From Perkinsus olseni (taxonomy: Eukaryota), in contig JABANN010000054.1 in assembly GCA_013115125.1 (NCBI GenBank), positions 1 through 64,000 of the forward strand: 64,000 nucleotides of DNA. Direction: 5' to 3'. The notes under the pieces are model-generated. The model was not told the DNA's origin. It was given only the letters and a program-made list of their open reading frames with translations, and made no database searches. Shown here piece by piece: positions 28,143 to 32,961 of the stretch. Every line of letters starts with the position of its first letter. Within the stretch, counting starts at the first letter, position 1. The translations under genes and the position numbers were made by a program.

Positions 28143-29144
28143 TCACTCAACTGCGTCTTTGCTTATTGGCGCGAAGTACGTCTTCCCAAATTTGGTCTTA
28201 TACTTGGGAGTTCGGTTAGATTCGGGTTCATCCAGGTTCCGAAGTCTTCTTGGAGCATCCGAGTTTTGCGAGGGGTCTACTTGTAAGGCCTCGGATTCAT
28301 TCCAGAAAGGTCCTCGCCACGTGTGCCCTAGACCTTGTGCTCGGGCTACTCTTTGGGATGGTGCCTCCACTTGCTCTGCACCGCCTTGCCTCTTTCTGCT
28401 TACCGTTAATTCCGCACTGACTGGCATCGTCTCCGCAGCCGGAAACTCACGGTATCTTCCCTCGGGACTGGTAGACGCAACTGGAGCTACTCTGTGCTGT
28501 CTGCTAAGATGCTCGCCGGTAGTGTCGTCACCCGTCGAGGGCTCCATGGTGACGAAGATGAAGTCTGATCTCTCGTAACGTTTGTCGTATTTATGCAACT
28601 TGCAGAAGCCGAGACTGATCGTACCATCATCTTCTGAACACAGCAGGATCTTGGACAGCAGGGCCGCCCCCAAAGTCGGTCTGAAAGCCCTTGATACTTC
28701 CTTCATCCCCTTCCATGGGTTGCTCTTCGCCGAATGCTGACCCATGGCTGCGATTCTCGCCGGACTTGGCCCTGACTGCGATCCTGTGAGCCCCCAACAG
28801 TCTCCTCCGAAATCATCGGTTAGCCTTCCCAGCAACGGTTTCCGCTTGTTGCTTGTGCCAACAAAGGACATCGTTCCAACAAGATACGAAGTACCCTCAG
28901 AATGAGTGAAGTTCATGTCGACTAACGGGACTACTATTTGTGGACTAGGAAGGTCGACCACCATCGTCAGATCTACCAGGTCAGGTATCTTTGATTTATC
29001 AGACTCTCTTATACGGTAATGACCGACCTTGTCACGTAAGGGGCTGTAGAGAAGTTGGGATCGATAACGAACGGTGGGGCGGGACAAAAAAGCCAGCCTC
29101 GCGAGGTTGAGTAGAATAAGGATGCGGATGTTAGCAGACATCAT
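28143..29144 (-). CDS. intronless secreted lineage-specific protein, paralog of the 43-kb gene
   Basis: Single ORF (in-frame upstream Met codons exist); GHYRIRESDKSKIPDLVDLTMVVDLP, CWGL, YERSDFIFVTMEP and TKFGKTY are shared with 43016-43958. Confidence 0.75.
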   Translation of the reverse strand: MMSANIRILILLNLARLAFLSRPTVRYRSQLLYSPLRDKVGHYRIRESDKSKIPDLVDLTMVVDLPSPQIVVPLVDMNFTHSEGTSYLVGTMSFVGTSNKRKPLLGRLTDDFGGDCWGLTGSQSGPSPARIAAMGQHSAKSNPWKGMKEVSRAFRPTLGAALLSKILLCSEDDGTISLGFCKLHKYDKRYERSDFIFVTMEPSTGDDTTGEHLSRQHRVAPVASTSPEGRYREFPAAETMPVSAELTVSRKRQGGAEQVEAPSQRVARAQGLGHTWRGPFWNESEALQVDPSQNSDAPRRLRNLDEPESNRTPKYKTKFGKTYFAPISKDAVE

Positions 29145-29374
29145 GCTGAAGGGTGGGGTAGGGTGCCACGCAGCTCCAACTGCCAACAAAAGTTCCACTG
29201 AAATCACGACTCCGCAGAGAAGAGACATCGCTGAACGCGGGACATTCTCTCCGATTCTCTCGAGGGACGCTATCTGGAAATACATATCGGGGGTCACGCC
29301 ATCGCGGTAGGCCACATCCGAATTGAGGCGAGCGAACTCAACTTCCGCTCGATGATGACTCGGAAACAACTCCG

Positions 29375-30450
29375 CTAGCCGCCCTCGTCACTCGAGGGGC
29401 CTCCTTCTTCATGCAATCGATGTAATCGTAGGCGGAATACCATGGCCGTGAGGTAAGGCTCACCACTTCTACTCATACCTACAGCTGACACCATGGTCAA
29501 CCTAAGATACTCATCCGATGTACCTTTCCTGCAAGGTAGATTCTCGAACCTCGCGCTTGATCTGATGTGCTGACCTTCACCATCGTCACCTGAGGTAGTT
29601 CGAGTGGAGCAGTAACGGACGGTTCTCGGCATACACTGAACCCCGGCGATCTCTAGCGCCTCCACAATCTTCCCAATGCACAGCGGGCCGATGCCTGGAC
29701 ACAGGAAGCACTCCGTTGAATACACAGACCCGATTCGAGGGAGCGTTCCGTGAGCGACTTTCGAACTCATCCCATCGAAAACCTACTTTACCTTGCACTT
29801 CGACGCAAGGATGCTCTCGCAAAGACAGCGAGATGGCTCCGGCCAGTTTGACTCGATCCGACTCGGCACTGGCAGTCAGCCTCGCAGGCGCCGTCGTATC
29901 GTCTCGAGCCTCTGAGCATCTCCAGGTCTTATGGAGTGTGATCCAACTATTACGCTTAGCGAAGGCTGCAATAGACTTTCATCGAGCGAGTCATAAGCTT
30001 CCCCTTACCTCCCATGCTTTTTGCTATCTCCTCGGTCGGCCCAGTGATCTCCATCTCAATCGGCTTCTGCTCATCGGCTAGTTTCATAGCGGCGGCGGCC
30101 GCCTTCACAGCTGTGGAGATGGTCTCCGTACCAACCTGAGAGGAGGACGAGGCTCTATGCACGTCAAGAAGTAAGCCCGCAGTCTACCGCCTCGAAAACG
30201 AGCATGTCGCCGACTCTTCGCAAGTAGAGATGAGCCATCCTGCCAAGCTCAGAAACATCTGACGAGGATCGGTGACGCCCGCCGACCTCCGATACTATCG
30301 CCTACCGGCTCGGCGGGAAATTCTGAATCTGTTCTCGCAGGCCTCCATCTCCCTCGTCGCCATTCGTCTCGCGACCAGCAACGGCTGAGCTAGTGTGAAG
30401 AATCCGCAGCTGCGACTGAGCCGGCGAAAGGGAGAGGGCCATCGCAGCAT
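29375..30450 (-). CDS. tandem SpoVS-like (Alba-fold) two-repeat protein B, presequence-like N-terminus
   Basis: MLRWPSPFRRLSRSCGF; repeat 1 FRISRRA-DVSELGRMAHLYLRRVGDMLVFEA-VGTETISTAVKAAAAA; repeat 2 LTASAESDRVKLAGAISLSLREHPCVEVQGIGPLCIGKIVEALEIA...SGEPYLTAMVFRL. Confidence 0.72.
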
Positions 30451-30519
30451 AGAACGGATACTGGTGATACGAAGGGAAGTGCAACACTGAGCAACATGAT
30501 CAGAAACTATCATCATCGC

Positions 30520-31472
30520 TCATGTCAAGGTCCGATCAATTTCAAAGTCATCTTCGAGACGGACCCGAAGGTTGATGCCGCTGATGGTCGTCTCCCCAGA
30601 TCGTGAGTAACCTACACATACCTCTGGACGACGGCAATTCATTCGAGACATACCAGAGTCGCTCTGCACTTGATAGAAGGAGGGCCTGGCCAGCAACTCC
30701 CCTGCAAGCTTCTCCTTTCGACAGAACTCAGCAGTTACCGTCATGGCCTCGGCCATCTTATGAACACAAACCGGTCCGATGCCTGAGCGTGGCCAAGAGC
30801 GAGCCATCCTCGTGATGAAGGTGGGAAGAAGCTCTCACCGTGCAGGTCCACGGGTGTCCTTTCTTTCAGTGAGCTGCTGATCGCTCCCGCCAGAGCGTGC
30901 ACACGAGTGGCTGTTGAGACTATCAATGCTCGGGTCTCTTCTGGTAGCTCAGGGACCAGTGGAGCATCCGCTAAGCGAATCACTAGCCAGATCTCGTAGT
31001 CTCGCCGTTCTGAAGGACGTGCGCTTCCGGCTATGAGATGGTCGGAGAGCTCACGTGAGTTCATTATCATACCGGGTGCGGGGCCGGTGAAGTGAACGTT
31101 CAGAGGAGTGGCACGGCCGAAACGCTGTGCAGCTATGGTGGCTGCCTTCACTGCGCAGTTGATAGGATGGGCACCCATCTGAGGAGATCTACGGACTATA
31201 ACCGACGGTGATAGGGACCCACCCCCTGCAGGACGAGGGCGTCTCCAGGCTGTATGAGGACACCCTGAATCAACTGAGCCAGCTCGCGTGCATCTAATGG
31301 GGAGAGCGGCGCCGCAGCGATGGGAGGAAGGGGATCTACCAGCCTCCTTCGAGACCCTGAACTTATCCTCAATAGCGACTATATCCGGCCCGGCACGGAT
31401 TCCCCACATGTCTCGGTGTGCGGCAGAGAGAGTGAGAAAGCCACGGCATAGCGACGGCGGCCGTGGAAGCAT
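30520..31472 (-). CDS. tandem SpoVS-like (Alba-fold) two-repeat protein A, presequence-like N-terminus
   Basis: MLPRPPSLCRGFLTLSAAHR; repeat 1 FRVSKEA-DARELAQLIQGVLIQPGDALVLQG-MGAHPINCAVKAATIA; repeat 2 LIVSTATRVHALAGAISSSLKERTPVDLHGIGPVCVHKMAEAMTVTAEF...RPSF...SGETTISGINLRV. Confidence 0.72.
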
Positions 31473-31645
31473 CGAAAACTGAGCGCTGGTGACTTATTCA
31501 CCATTCGATGAACACGAGCTCGGCTGGCTGTGAGAATGCAATACTCTCCCGAGTCCAGTGAGAGTCAATTGTTGTGAAGTGGCTTCATTTCAATGGAAAT
31601 AACAAGATACAAGATTGAATGATATTAACTGCAGAGGTCTCACGG

Positions 31646-31738
31646 TCATGACCTGCTAGGCGCAGCAGCCTCATCATCAGCGGCAACAGCAGCCGCAGCA
31701 GCCGCAGAAGCAGCAGCGGCGGCGGCGGCAGCGGCAGT

Positions 31739-31787
<49 letters not shown>

Positions 31788-32474
31788 GCATCAGCAGCAG
31801 CAGCAGCAGCAGCAGCAGGATGTGTTGGTGGTGCCCGACGTGGATCTGAGATTGTACGTACCAACGAGACGCGATGCTATCGGTCAGCGCTCACCTTCCC
31901 TCTTCCCACCCTCACGTCCCTCCTCGGCGGCATCGGCGGGGCCCTTCTTCGGATCAAACCCCAGCTGATTGCCCACCTCATCTACAGGCTCGCCGTCGGA
32001 CTCTCCAGAGGACACTTCGACGGGCTCCTCATCATAACTCAGTACAGGCTCACACTCTGATGACGTATCGCTATACACACTTGAGTCTTCTTCCTCAACC
32101 GGTCGCACCAGCCCCTGCTCTCTCAGCCTGCGGTACCGCTCCCTTATCTGCGGCTTTATGAACTTTTTCCAGTGCTCCTTCATGCTCTGCCAGCTCCTCC
32201 CGGGCAGGACACCTGATCGTTCAACTGAGTAGGGGGATAGTGCCATAATGATGATGAGCTTACAATCCCGCTCAGCGTGCTTCCAGAAGCTATCTCCTTT
32301 GGTCGAAGGCGGTGGACGTCCCCTCATCCTAGCCCTCCTGCTGACCTCCTTCACATAATGCTCCAACTTCACGTCCTCCACCATCGAACACTGCCTTCGT
32401 CTCTTGTCCTCCCGGTCCTCCCTGACGATCTGCTCCTCGAACCAATATTCGTTGCCATCCTCTGAAGTTGCCAT
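31646..32474 (-). CDS. RAP1-type Myb-domain protein with acidic poly-Asp/poly-Ala tail (paralog 1)
   Basis: EDVKLEHYV...TKGDSFWKHAE...LPGRSWQSMKEHWKKFIKP resembles the RAP1/TERF2IP Myb (GNALWK..HSWQSLKDRYLKHL); last exon encodes Ala and Asp runs. Confidence 0.7.
31663..31817. repeat. compound trinucleotide microsatellite (CAG/CGG)n-(CAT)15-(CAG)n
   Basis: Directly visible; (CAT)15 at 31741-31785. Confidence 0.95.
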
Positions 32475-32961
32475 CGTTGATGTGAGAATGGAGCGAACAA
32501 CTGCGAGCGAACAAGGTGATACCAATCAGAAAAAATGTCCCATGCGCAACTTGCGCTCTTCGCAACCCGTAGCGGCCTCTTTCGACCACTGAAATAGTGC
32601 ACGATTCCGATCTATCCCCATCAGATCGGGAGGGATGTGTGGCGTCGGGTCACGGAAAAGCACCCCTCACAATTCCTGAGCCACATCCTCCTGGCGCCAG
32701 AGCTAAGACGCGGAAGAGAGAGCGATGGCCCGTGGGAATAAGGAGAGTCATCGAATCATCCACCATGTGATGATCACTAGAGCGAATTCAGCGTCCAGAG
32801 AACTGTTGATGAACTCAAGACACTCCCACGCGTGTCGAAGAAACTCTGGGTGAACGTGGTAGATAGAGGGTAGGAGGAGGAGACCAGCGAGGTCGCTAAA
32901 CAAAGGCATGATGCTACCGTGGTGGTGAAGGAAGTGGTGGCAACAGCGGTAAACGAACATG

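What the first reader, a model, noticed from the sequence alone, without database searches (positions are those of the whole stretch)
29375..31472. Tandem pair of spliced, mitochondrial-type genes, each built from two bacterial SpoVS-like repeats
Seen: hand-splicing gives two head-to-tail paralogs about 70 nt apart with matching intron positions (after FRxSxxA, before the xG helix, and at the G of GIGP). Each has an Arg/Ser-rich, acid-poor N-terminus and two repeats such as LAGAISSSLKERTPVDLHGIGP and MGAHPINCAVKAATIA. Known: Bacillus stage V sporulation protein S has the pattern VAGALAGVLRERGAAEIQAIGAGALNQAVKAVAIA and an Alba-like nucleic-acid-binding fold, and it dimerises. Inference: these are fused pseudo-dimers of SpoVS imported into an organelle, possibly an A/B heteromer binding RNA or DNA. 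That would matter because myzozoan mitochondria have fragmented rRNAs and Perkinsus mitochondrial genes use programmed frameshifting. The ORF track misses the system because it is split across frames.
Basis: partly seen in the sequence, partly recalled or inferred. Interest (0 to 1): 0.82.

Follow-up and report, generated by a model that had tools for sequence, protein, structure and literature searches.

The report
Paired double-SpoVS-domain genes in Perkinsus
Two neighbouring, spliced and expressed genes of the oyster and clam parasite Perkinsus each encode a protein made of two copies of a small fold known from bacterial SpoVS and from Alba nucleic-acid-binding proteins; what the proteins do and where they sit in the cell is still unknown.

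Summary
On the minus strand lie two head-to-tail paralogs. Gene B is 31472-30520, with 6 exons and 239 aa. Gene A is 30450-29375, with 7 exons and 248 aa. They are 69 nt apart.

Spliced contigs from four public runs support all 11 introns, and every one is GT..AG. The five B introns match five of the six A introns in phase and place. A and B are 31% identical.

Each protein consists of two SpoVS (PF04232) domains:
- Public Perkinsus orthologs pass Pfam's cut-off.
- A profile built without Perkinsus rows matches both window proteins end to end.
- AlphaFold models of the orthologs have pLDDT 88 and 92, and their best match is Thermus SpoVS, then Alba and Rpp20/25.

The window is Perkinsus, closest to P. 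olseni. Public models there wrongly fuse the two genes and name them an acyltransferase.

About 40 two-domain relatives exist elsewhere. Some have RGG tails and some have presequence-like N-termini.

Organelle import, nucleic-acid binding and an A/B heteromer remain untested. A has a convincing basic, acid-free N-terminal extension. B's is weak. The mature proteins are near neutral.

This is a new, undescribed variant of a known fold family, of moderate interest.

The parts
30520..31472 (-). Gene B (upstream paralog), coding part from ATG to stop. Exons: 31472-31340, 31293-31223, 31178-31055, 31009-30839, 30782-30654, 30611-30520. 239 aa. Domain 1 is about aa 35-125 and domain 2 about aa 133-226.
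   Evidence: Five GT..AG joints in spliced contigs. Model built and translated. It is 96.7% identical to the P. olseni model P0001 and 89.5% to P. marinus P0003. It scores 131.5 bits against a two-domain profile built without Perkinsus rows.
29375..30450 (-). Gene A (downstream paralog), coding part from ATG to stop. Exons: 30450-30306, 30258-30188, 30135-30009, 29965-29792, 29694-29635, 29589-29524, 29478-29375. 248 aa.
   Evidence: Six GT..AG joints. Model. It scores 77.1 bits against the profile built without Perkinsus rows. It is 94.3% identical to the A part of P0002 and 84% to P0020.
31294..31339 (-). Intron B1 (46 nt, phase 1), after the first strand (FRVSKEA). Same place as A1, 30259-30305 (47 nt).
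   Evidence: Joint in X1, X2 and X13. Phases.
31179..31222 (-). Intron B2 (44 nt, phase 0), before the second helix of domain 1. Same place as A2, 30136-30187 (52 nt).
   Evidence: Joint in X1, X2, X3 and X13..
31010..31054 (-). Intron B3 (45 nt, phase 1), in the loop of domain 1. It corresponds to A3, 29966-30008 (43 nt).
   Evidence: Joint in X1, X3 and X13. The public models P0001 and P0003 splice it out.
30783..30838 (-). Intron B4 (56 nt, phase 1), in the G codon of GIGP in domain 2. Same place as A4, 29695-29791 (97 nt).
   Evidence: Joint in X1 and X13..
30612..30653 (-). Intron B5 (42 nt, phase 1), before the last strand. Same place as A6, 29479-29523 (45 nt). A has one more intron, A5 at 29590-29634 (45 nt), with no partner in B.
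   Evidence: Joints in X1 and X13, and in X3 for the A introns..
30451..30519 (-). 69-nt spacer between B's stop and A's ATG. It must hold B's 3' end and A's 5' end.
   Evidence: The B contig of X1 ends at 30502. The A contigs of X1 and X2 begin at 30455.
31473..31480 (-). Very short 5' leader of B. The X1 contig ends at 31480. Its loose letters, read with the matching bases, spell the last letters of the Perkinsus spliced leader (..CAAG) in front of TTTTCG-ATG. The genomic AG at 31480-31479 would be the acceptor.
   Evidence: table 7 (one contig). Leader sequences come from PMC3101222 (passages). This is a weak hint, based on only 2 non-genomic letters.
30451..30455 (-). Very short 5' leader of A. 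The X1 and X2 contigs end at 30455. X1 has 3 loose letters that again fit ..CAAG, but no AG acceptor lies in the genome at that spot.
   Evidence: tables 7 and 8. Sequence read.

Best explanation
Shown. These are two adjacent nuclear genes of a Perkinsus genome, closest to P. olseni among the named hits. Both are intron-rich and transcribed, and they are old paralogs. Each encodes a protein of about 240-250 aa made of two SpoVS-type (Alba-superfamily, beta-alpha-beta-alpha-beta-beta) domains in one chain. The genes belong to a distinct family of two-domain SpoVS proteins found outside Perkinsus.

Inferred, with my odds:
- The two domains of one chain pack against each other as a built-in pseudo-dimer, replacing the dimer proposed for single-domain SpoVS and known for Alba (about 0.7).
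- The halves have specialised. Domain 2 keeps the LAGAI...GIGP core but has lost the N-Q-x-x-K helix motif of canonical members. Domain 1 keeps the lysine.
- The proteins bind nucleic acid, more likely RNA than DNA, as a small chaperone or packaging factor (about 0.5).
- The first AUG of each mature mRNA adds a short basic extension that acts as a mitochondrial presequence (A about 0.5, B about 0.3, both about 0.3).
- Whether A and B work as a heteromer is open.
For: Gene structure and expression. 11 of 11 joints are GT..AG, in spliced contigs of 4 runs from 4 studies. All laid contigs (16 of 16) are 99% or more alike. Both frames are intact.

Family.
- Pfam SpoVS on the public orthologs: P0003 scores 59.5 bits with 2 stretches, and P0001 scores 80.4 bits with 3 stretches. 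The A part of P0001 scores 33.4 bits with 1 stretch. The cut-off is 24 bits.
- A profile of the 34 non-Perkinsus rows of alignment A2 matches window B (131.5 bits, profile positions 11-190) and window A (77.1 bits, positions 6-197).
- The A2 profile hits PDB 2eh1_A, Thermus SpoVS, at E 9.2e-28.
- Domain 1 of the clade against canonical domain 2 by hhalign: probability 96.5%, E 7.9e-10.

Fold.
- AF2 model of P0003: pLDDT 87.5, pTM 0.86, with two beta-alpha-beta-alpha-beta-beta units.
- AF2 model of the A part: pLDDT 91.9, pTM 0.87.
- Foldseek: the first four hits of both models are SpoVS chains (TM by target 0.85-0.88), followed by Rpp20/25 and Alba.
- VIA-align: Z 13.0 to 2ek0_A over residues 114-212, and Z 9-10 to Alba.

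Conservation. B is 89.5% identical to the P. marinus model and 85.8% to the P. chesapeaki model.

N-termini.
- X1 contigs end 8 and 5 nt upstream of the first ATGs.
- A's 29-aa extension has net charge +6, no acidic residue and hydrophobic moment 0.88. Its hydropathy is too low for a signal peptide.
- The extensions of A and B align with each other.
- P0020, an A ortholog 84% identical, also starts with a basic, acid-free stretch.

Relatives. 10 of the 35 other rows in the tree carry extensions that I classed by eye as presequence-like, and 7 carry RGG or basic low-complexity tails, typical of RNA-binding proteins.
Against: - No assay or predictor of location was available.
- B's extension is weak: net charge +2, an Asp at position 21, hydrophobic moment 0.48.
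- The P. marinus public model starts at the second Met without it. The P. chesapeaki fused model shows acidic residues just before that Met, though that stretch may come from another exon.
- The mature proteins are near neutral to slightly acidic (pI 6.3 and 6.2; domain 2 pI 5.6 in both), unlike basic Alba.
- No biochemical function of any SpoVS protein is established. Rigden and Galperin (2008, passages read) only predicted DNA binding.
- Pfam finds nothing in A's domain 1 alone (0 families), and B's domain 1 alone scores 22.1 bits, under the cut-off.
- The pseudo-dimer packing was not compared with the 2eh1 crystal dimer.
- The spliced-leader hint rests on 2-3 loose letters in one contig per gene, and A lacks an AG at the implied junction.
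- The Pfam and fold tests used public orthologs (84-97% identical), not the window's own spliced proteins, because the tools do not accept joined sequences.
Confidence: 0.55

Rival explanations
1. The same proteins work in the cytosol or nucleus as RNA-binding or RNA-chaperone factors, like eukaryotic Alba proteins. The short N-terminal stretches are not import signals, or translation of B starts at the second Met.
For: The P. marinus public model P0003 starts at the second Met. B's extension is weak. A whole branch of relatives carries RGG or basic low-complexity tails and no presequence-like start: 7 of 37 rows, classed by eye. In the 10-row clade that holds A and B, 6 rows have no extension. 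These 6 include the public Perkinsus models P0003 and P0004, whose starts are doubtful.
Against: Contigs place the first ATG 5-8 nt from the mRNA end in both genes. A's extension is strongly presequence-like, and the extensions are alike in A and B. Neither Perkinsus protein has an RGG tail.
Confidence: 0.3
2. The fold is used for something other than nucleic acid, for example as a protein-binding adaptor or assembly factor. SepF and IF3-C share this topology, and B. subtilis SpoVS has been modelled in complex with the protein YunD.
For: Near-neutral pI and acidic second domains. Domain 2 has lost the N-Q-x-x-K helix motif that is invariant in canonical two-domain members. SepF and IF3-C chains appear at Z 7-8. 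PDB entry 9a7h is a YunD-SpoVS model, known here by its title only.
Against: The closest fold neighbours after SpoVS are all nucleic-acid binders: Alba, Rpp20/25 and Pop6/7. Relatives with RGG tails point to RNA.
Confidence: 0.14
3. Artefact: bacterial contamination, chance frames, or one copy being a dead duplicate.
For: None found. SpoVS is best known from bacteria.
Against: There are eleven spliceosomal GT..AG introns, all removed in RNA-derived contigs. Both frames are intact. Orthologs exist in three named Perkinsus species. Both copies are covered by spliced contigs, and A's ortholog P0020 is 84% identical.
Confidence: 0.01

Closest known systems
Bacterial SpoVS (Pfam PF04232; structures 2EH1/2EK0 of Thermus thermophilus; B. 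subtilis stage V sporulation protein S)
   Same: Same domain family by sequence profile and the same fold. The LAGAI...(A/G)IGP core aligns residue by residue.
   Different: The bacterial proteins are single domains of about 86-90 aa. Here two domains are fused in one chain, encoded by intron-rich eukaryotic genes, with N-terminal extensions. Domain 1 is strongly diverged: under Pfam's cut-off in B and unseen by Pfam in A. It has a longer loop with an FTGP/ITGP motif, and in the A model an extra helix. Domain 2 lacks the N-Q-x-x-K motif. No sporulation context applies.
Alba superfamily (archaeal Alba/Sso10b; eukaryotic Rpp20/Rpp25, Pop6/Pop7; Alba1-4 of trypanosomes and Plasmodium)
   Same: The same beta-alpha-beta-alpha-beta-beta topology (VIA-align Z 9-10). 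They act as homo- or heterodimers. Eukaryotic members often carry RGG tails, as some two-domain SpoVS relatives do. The 2024 Alba survey counts SpoVS as a distant member (PMC11621453, passages read).
   Different: Pfam found no similarity to Alba families. The domains are fused rather than separate subunits. The proteins are near neutral rather than basic. The survey treats SpoVS as bacterial and, in the passages I read, does not mention eukaryotic or tandem forms.
Uncharacterised two-domain SpoVS proteins in public databases
   Same: Same two-domain layout and length, about 180-285 aa, aligned colinearly. A 10-row clade with SH-aLRT 100 joins Perkinsus A and B with 6 non-Perkinsus proteins. 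The nearest Atlas cluster is a 224-aa 'SpoVS domain-containing protein' cluster labelled Eukaryota 100%, commonest Chlorophyta; the score is 0.87 for P0003 and 0.91 for P0014. This is a lead, not proof. A gene named SpoVS serves as a chromosome-6 marker in volvocine algae (PMC4856071, one table passage).
   Different: None has a described function. Perkinsus has two diverged copies side by side. Organisms of the unnamed relatives could not be looked up, because the cluster tool was off.

Membership tests
SpoVS (Pfam PF04232) | Whole-protein score above Pfam's gathering cut-off (24 bits) | tested here: met
   P0003 (B ortholog) scores 59.5 bits with 2 stretches, and P0001 scores 80.4 bits with 3 stretches. 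The A part of P0001 scores 33.4 bits with 1 stretch. Single exons of the window are below the cut-off, at 20.1 and 16.5 bits. The window's spliced proteins could be tested only in a script, against a family profile: 131.5 and 77.1 bits.
SpoVS (Pfam PF04232) | Alba-like beta-alpha-beta-alpha-beta-beta fold matching solved SpoVS structures | tested here: met
   AF2 models have pLDDT 87.5 and 91.9. Their top Foldseek hits are 2eh1, 2ek0 and 9a7h_B, with TM by target 0.85-0.88. VIA-align gives Z 13.0, rmsd 2.4, 90 residues aligned, for domain 2. Domain 1 was not searched alone. Its fold rests on the model's secondary structure and on hhalign at 96.5%.
SpoVS (Pfam PF04232) | Both halves of each protein are SpoVS domains | tested here: met
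   B domain 1 alone scores 22.1 bits, E 1.3e-4, just under the cut-off. A domain 1 alone matches 0 Pfam families. Profile-profile comparison of the clade's domain 1 gives 97.4% (E 1.1e-11) against canonical domain 1, 96.5% (E 7.9e-10) against canonical domain 2, and 93.2% against its own domain 2.
SpoVS (Pfam PF04232) | Single-domain bacterial protein with a role in sporulation | tested here: not met
   These are two-domain proteins from intron-bearing eukaryotic genes. This is a different architecture within the same domain family. The sporulation role does not apply.
Alba family proper (Alba, Rpp20, Rpp25) | Sequence-profile match to the Alba families | tested here: inconclusive
   No Alba family was listed by Pfam at E up to 1. 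Only structural similarity was found, at Z 8-10. No direct profile-profile test against Alba was run.
Mitochondrial matrix-targeted proteins | N-terminal presequence: basic, free of acidic residues, able to form an amphipathic helix, present in the mature mRNA | tested here: inconclusive
   A has 29 aa, net charge +6, no D/E and moment 0.88. B has 21 aa, net charge +2, one Asp and moment 0.48. mRNA contigs reach 5-8 nt upstream of the first ATG. No trained predictor was available.
Mitochondrial matrix-targeted proteins | Observed location in the organelle | not testable with these tools
   This needs tagging or proteomics in Perkinsus.
Spliced-leader trans-spliced Perkinsus mRNAs | Leader (ending ..CTCAAG) joined at an AG acceptor upstream of the ATG | tested here: inconclusive
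   There are 2 (B) and 3 (A) loose letters, one contig each, that fit ..CAAG (leader from PMC3101222). B has an AG at the junction and A does not. Contigs cannot show RNA ends.

The most novel reading that the evidence does not exclude
Perkinsus A and B form an obligate heteromer of two built-in SpoVS pseudo-dimers. It is imported into the mitochondrion and there binds and organises the fragmented rRNA pieces or the frameshift-bearing mRNAs. More widely, two-domain SpoVS proteins would be an overlooked eukaryotic class of Alba-like RNA chaperones with separate organellar and RGG-bearing nucleo-cytoplasmic branches.
Probability: 0.1. Interest if true: 0.8.

Novelty: new variant of a known kind. 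Interest (0 to 1): 0.45.

Why it matters
SpoVS is treated in the literature as a bacterial protein of unknown biochemical role. The 2024 Alba survey calls it bacterial in the passages I read. I found no paper that mentions SpoVS together with Perkinsus or with dinoflagellates. Each of those searches returned 0 papers. A search for the P. marinus locus tag also returned 0. Only CC-licensed PMC papers and bioRxiv were searched.

A conserved eukaryotic family of fused double-SpoVS proteins offers a tractable entry to the function of this fold. Some members have RGG tails and some have presequence-like starts.

For Perkinsus it adds two expressed candidates for organellar or cytosolic RNA handling. 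The organism's mitochondrial gene expression is very unusual (PMC9550989, abstract read).

There is also a practical point. Public gene models at this locus are wrong. B and A are fused and named 'lysophosphatidylcholine acyltransferase 2' in P. olseni, and B is fused to the upstream Myb-like gene in P. chesapeaki. The spliced contigs give corrected models.

Tried and rejected
- Whole-genome search: no genome is held for this window.
The taxonomic range therefore rests only on two Atlas look-ups.
- A third word-index search, with alignment A1, returned only 8 proteins, all already seen.
- RNA runs: no listed holder is on record as RNA. The runs are called RNA-derived only because their contigs lack the introns.
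- Complex of B (P0003) with the A part of P0001 (residues 210-409, which lack A's first strand): no verdict, score 0.00 in 2 of 2 runs, controls not folded. This is no evidence either way.
A scan with P0018 matched 419 stretches, none confirmed.
- Phage records: tblastn with P0003 gave no match. The viral structure library gave one phage SpoVS at E 5.7e-6 and nothing two-domain of note.
- False relatives: P0008, P0015 and P0019 are bacterial repeat surface proteins that match through a TFTATDPGLL-like repeat. The other multi-stretch long hits (P0025, P0028, P0033, P0039, P0050) were not read and were left out.
- My first hand model of A's 3' part, with one long intron, was wrong. The contigs show two introns and a 66-nt exon.
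- Frame 0 of A's first exon (MALSLSP...) was rejected in favour of the frame that carries NRFRISRRA.
- Supplements of papers were closed and not seen. Those of PMC11621453 may list eukaryotic SpoVS hits.
Full report
**What is there.** The region 29375-31472 holds two genes on the minus strand.

I first read the frames. I then laid contigs of four public runs on 29200-31700. All 16 laid contigs are 99% or more alike to the window. Eleven joints were reported, and each skips 42-97 nt. All 11 have CT..AC on the plus strand, which is GT..AG for a minus-strand gene. Canonical placement was confirmed for 11 of 11.

The runs are only guessed to be RNA. I treat their contigs as RNA-derived because they lack the introns. 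Two contigs (X13 29667-29820 and X2 29763-29929) still hold part or all of the 97-nt intron of gene A. Unspliced forms or DNA are therefore present too.

**Gene models.**

| Gene | Span | Exons | Introns (nt) | Protein |
|---|---|---|---|---|
| B | 31472-30520 | 6 | 46, 44, 45, 56, 42 | 239 aa |
| A | 30450-29375 | 7 | 47, 52, 43, 97, 45, 45 | 248 aa |

- Both frames are open and end in a stop.
- The spacer between B's stop and A's ATG is 69 nt.
- Intron places, given as residue and phase, are (44,1) (68,0) (109,1) (166,1) (209,1) in B. In A they are (48,1) (72,0) (114,1) (172,1) (192,1) (214,1).
- With the 4-6 residue offset of the alignment, five pairs share place and phase. The linker pair is only approximate, because that stretch aligns poorly. 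A has one extra intron.
- A and B are 31% identical over 229 columns (E 2e-26).
- No third copy lies in the window.

**Organism and public models.**
- A search with B's largest exon found only Perkinsus proteins. B is 96.7% identical to a P. olseni model, 89.5% to P. marinus PMAR005541 (P0003) and 85.8% to a P. chesapeaki model.
- The P. olseni models P0001 and P0002 run B into A. They skip B's last exon and A's first, and are named 'lysophosphatidylcholine acyltransferase 2'.
- The P. chesapeaki model P0004 joins the upstream Myb_Rap1-like gene to B. That also shows the Myb-B neighbourhood is conserved (window 31884-32525).
- An MMETSP transcript product (P0005) is 99% identical to P0003 over the 72% of it that it covers.

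**Family and fold.**
- Single exons give only sub-threshold SpoVS hits of 20.1 and 16.5 bits. Spliced public orthologs pass: P0003 at 59.5 bits with 2 stretches, P0001 at 80.4 bits with 3 stretches, and the A part of P0001 at 33.4 bits. The cut-off is 24 bits.
- The tools do not accept joined sequence, so I tested the window's own proteins in a script. A profile of the 34 non-Perkinsus rows of alignment A2 matches B at 131.5 bits and A at 77.1 bits, both end to end over both domains.
- The A2 profile hits Thermus SpoVS (2eh1/2ek0) at E 9.2e-28.
- Domain 1 is diverged. Alone it scores 22.1 bits in B and nothing in A.
- Profile-profile comparison nevertheless links the clade's domain 1 to canonical domains at 96.5-97.4% probability.
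- The AlphaFold2 model of P0003 (pLDDT 87.5, pTM 0.86) shows two beta-alpha-beta-alpha-beta-beta units.
- The model of the A part has pLDDT 91.9 and pTM 0.87, and shows an extra helix in the loop of domain 1.
- For both models the first four Foldseek hits are SpoVS chains, followed by Rpp20/25 and Alba.
- VIA-align gives Z 13.0 for domain 2 against 2ek0_A and Z 9-10 against Alba.
- The high pTM values suggest a fixed packing of the two domains. I infer an intramolecular pseudo-dimer but did not compare it with the crystal dimer.

**Relatives.**
- An exhaustive search of 1.84 billion representatives with P0003 gave 53 proteins at E up to 0.001. Three that I read (P0008, P0015, P0019) are bacterial repeat proteins and false hits. 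Five more long multi-stretch hits were left unread.
- The rest are mostly 180-285 aa and align over both domains. A few have four domains (P0012, P0017).
- By eye, 10 of the 35 non-window rows in the tree start with basic, presequence-like stretches. Seven have RGG or basic low-complexity tails.
- I built a quick maximum-likelihood tree of 37 rows. P0006 was left out as a partial duplicate. P0030 was left out because it has no full two-domain envelope.
- The tree has a 10-row clade (SH-aLRT 100) with A, B, two Perkinsus orthologs and six others. It also has a 6-row clade (97) in which every row is presequence-like, and a 15-row group (92) that holds all seven RGG rows.
- A groups with P0016 and P0043 rather than with B, at support 89 and on long branches. 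The A/B split may therefore predate Perkinsus, but this is unsure.
- Organisms of the unnamed rows could not be looked up. The Atlas places P0003 (0.87) and P0014 (0.91) nearest a 224-aa SpoVS cluster labelled Eukaryota, commonest Chlorophyta. Another 246-aa cluster is labelled mostly viral. These are leads only.

**N-termini and location.**
- In run X1 the B contig ends at 31480 and the A contig at 30455, which is 8 and 5 nt before the first ATGs. X2 ends at 31477 and 30455.
- The 2-3 loose letters, read with the matching bases, spell the end of the Perkinsus spliced leader (PmaSL1/2 end in CTCAAG; PMC3101222, passages). They are followed at once by adaptor sequence, and A has no AG there. 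I count this as a weak hint.
- X13 has a spliced contig that runs on to 31700, so longer precursors exist.
- The B contig stops at 30502. The A contig stops at 29359, and the next gene's contig starts at 29347. The genes are packed within tens of bases, which fits processing of a long precursor (inference).
- A's 29-aa extension has net charge +6, no acidic residue and moment 0.88. B's 21-aa extension has net charge +2. Neither is hydrophobic enough for a signal peptide.
- The extensions align with each other. P0020, an A ortholog, also begins basic and acid-free.
- Against import: the P. marinus B model starts at the second Met, and the P. chesapeaki model has acidic residues before it.
- The mature proteins have pI 6.2-6.3, with acidic second domains.

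**Function.** Nothing here measures function. The fold's nearest neighbours bind nucleic acid, and relatives with RGG tails point to RNA. SpoVS itself has no established biochemistry (PMC2732212, passages). The canonical helix motif N-Q-x-x-K, invariant in alignment A4, is kept only in part in domain 1 and is lost in domain 2 of the Perkinsus clade. The two halves have therefore specialised. The one complex job gave no verdict and is listed under Tried and rejected only.

**Novelty.** The domain hit is already stored for these proteins in the databases. I found no paper on eukaryotic or tandem SpoVS:
- SpoVS with 'eukaryot' gave 28 papers, of which 20 were listed. The relevant one treats SpoVS as bacterial.
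- SpoVS with Perkinsus gave 0 papers, with dinoflagellate 0, and with Chlamydomonas 2, where it is only a marker name. The locus tag gave 0.

I rate this a new variant of a known kind, of moderate interest.

Noticed in passing
window 31884-32525 (-), and P0004: The upstream neighbour is a Myb_Rap1-like gene (21.1 bits here, under the cut-off; 31.4 bits in the P. chesapeaki model). The P. chesapeaki public model fuses it to gene B, so the neighbourhood is conserved and that model is probably wrong.
   Followed up: partly
window 31662-31818: A trinucleotide array (GCA/ATC units, 52 copies at period 3) lies between the Myb-like gene and gene B. On the minus strand one frame reads as long runs of Ala and Asp. 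A spliced X13 contig runs through it to 31700.
   Followed up: no
window 28143-29387 (-): A 414-codon open frame lies directly downstream of gene A, with hydrophobic stretches and no Pfam hit at E up to 0.01. An X1 contig for it begins at 29347, only 11 nt after the end of the gene A contig (29359). It may be the source of the 'acyltransferase' name on fused public models, but this is a guess.
   Followed up: partly
P0001, P0002 (P. olseni public models): Both models run gene B into gene A with wrong exon use and carry the name 'lysophosphatidylcholine acyltransferase 2'. No acyltransferase domain was found in them by Pfam.
   Followed up: yes
window 29695-29791: The 97-nt intron A4 is retained, fully or in part, in low-depth contigs of two runs (X13 29667-29820 at depth 15.8; X2 29763-29929 at depth 3.7). 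The spliced forms in X13 have depth 57-68.
   Followed up: no
P0012, P0017, P0041, P0009 (relatives): Some relatives carry two two-domain units in one chain. P0012 and P0017 each have four SpoVS domains, and P0041 shows one full and one partial two-domain envelope. P0009 (855 aa) has several diverged units. The two-domain unit itself has been duplicated more than once.
   Followed up: no
P0008, P0015, P0019 (one search hits): Very long bacterial surface-repeat proteins score down to E 2e-29 against P0003, through many weak matches of a TFTATDPGLL-type repeat to the FTGPAPGL loop. This is a trap for automatic family counts.
   Followed up: yes
gene B residues 68 and 167; gene A residues 72 and 173: Within each gene, the intron before the second helix of domain 1 (phase 0, after the Gly) and the intron in the GIGP Gly codon of domain 2 (phase 1) lie 2 nt apart in equivalent positions of the two repeats. 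This could be an intron older than the domain duplication, or coincidence.
   Followed up: no
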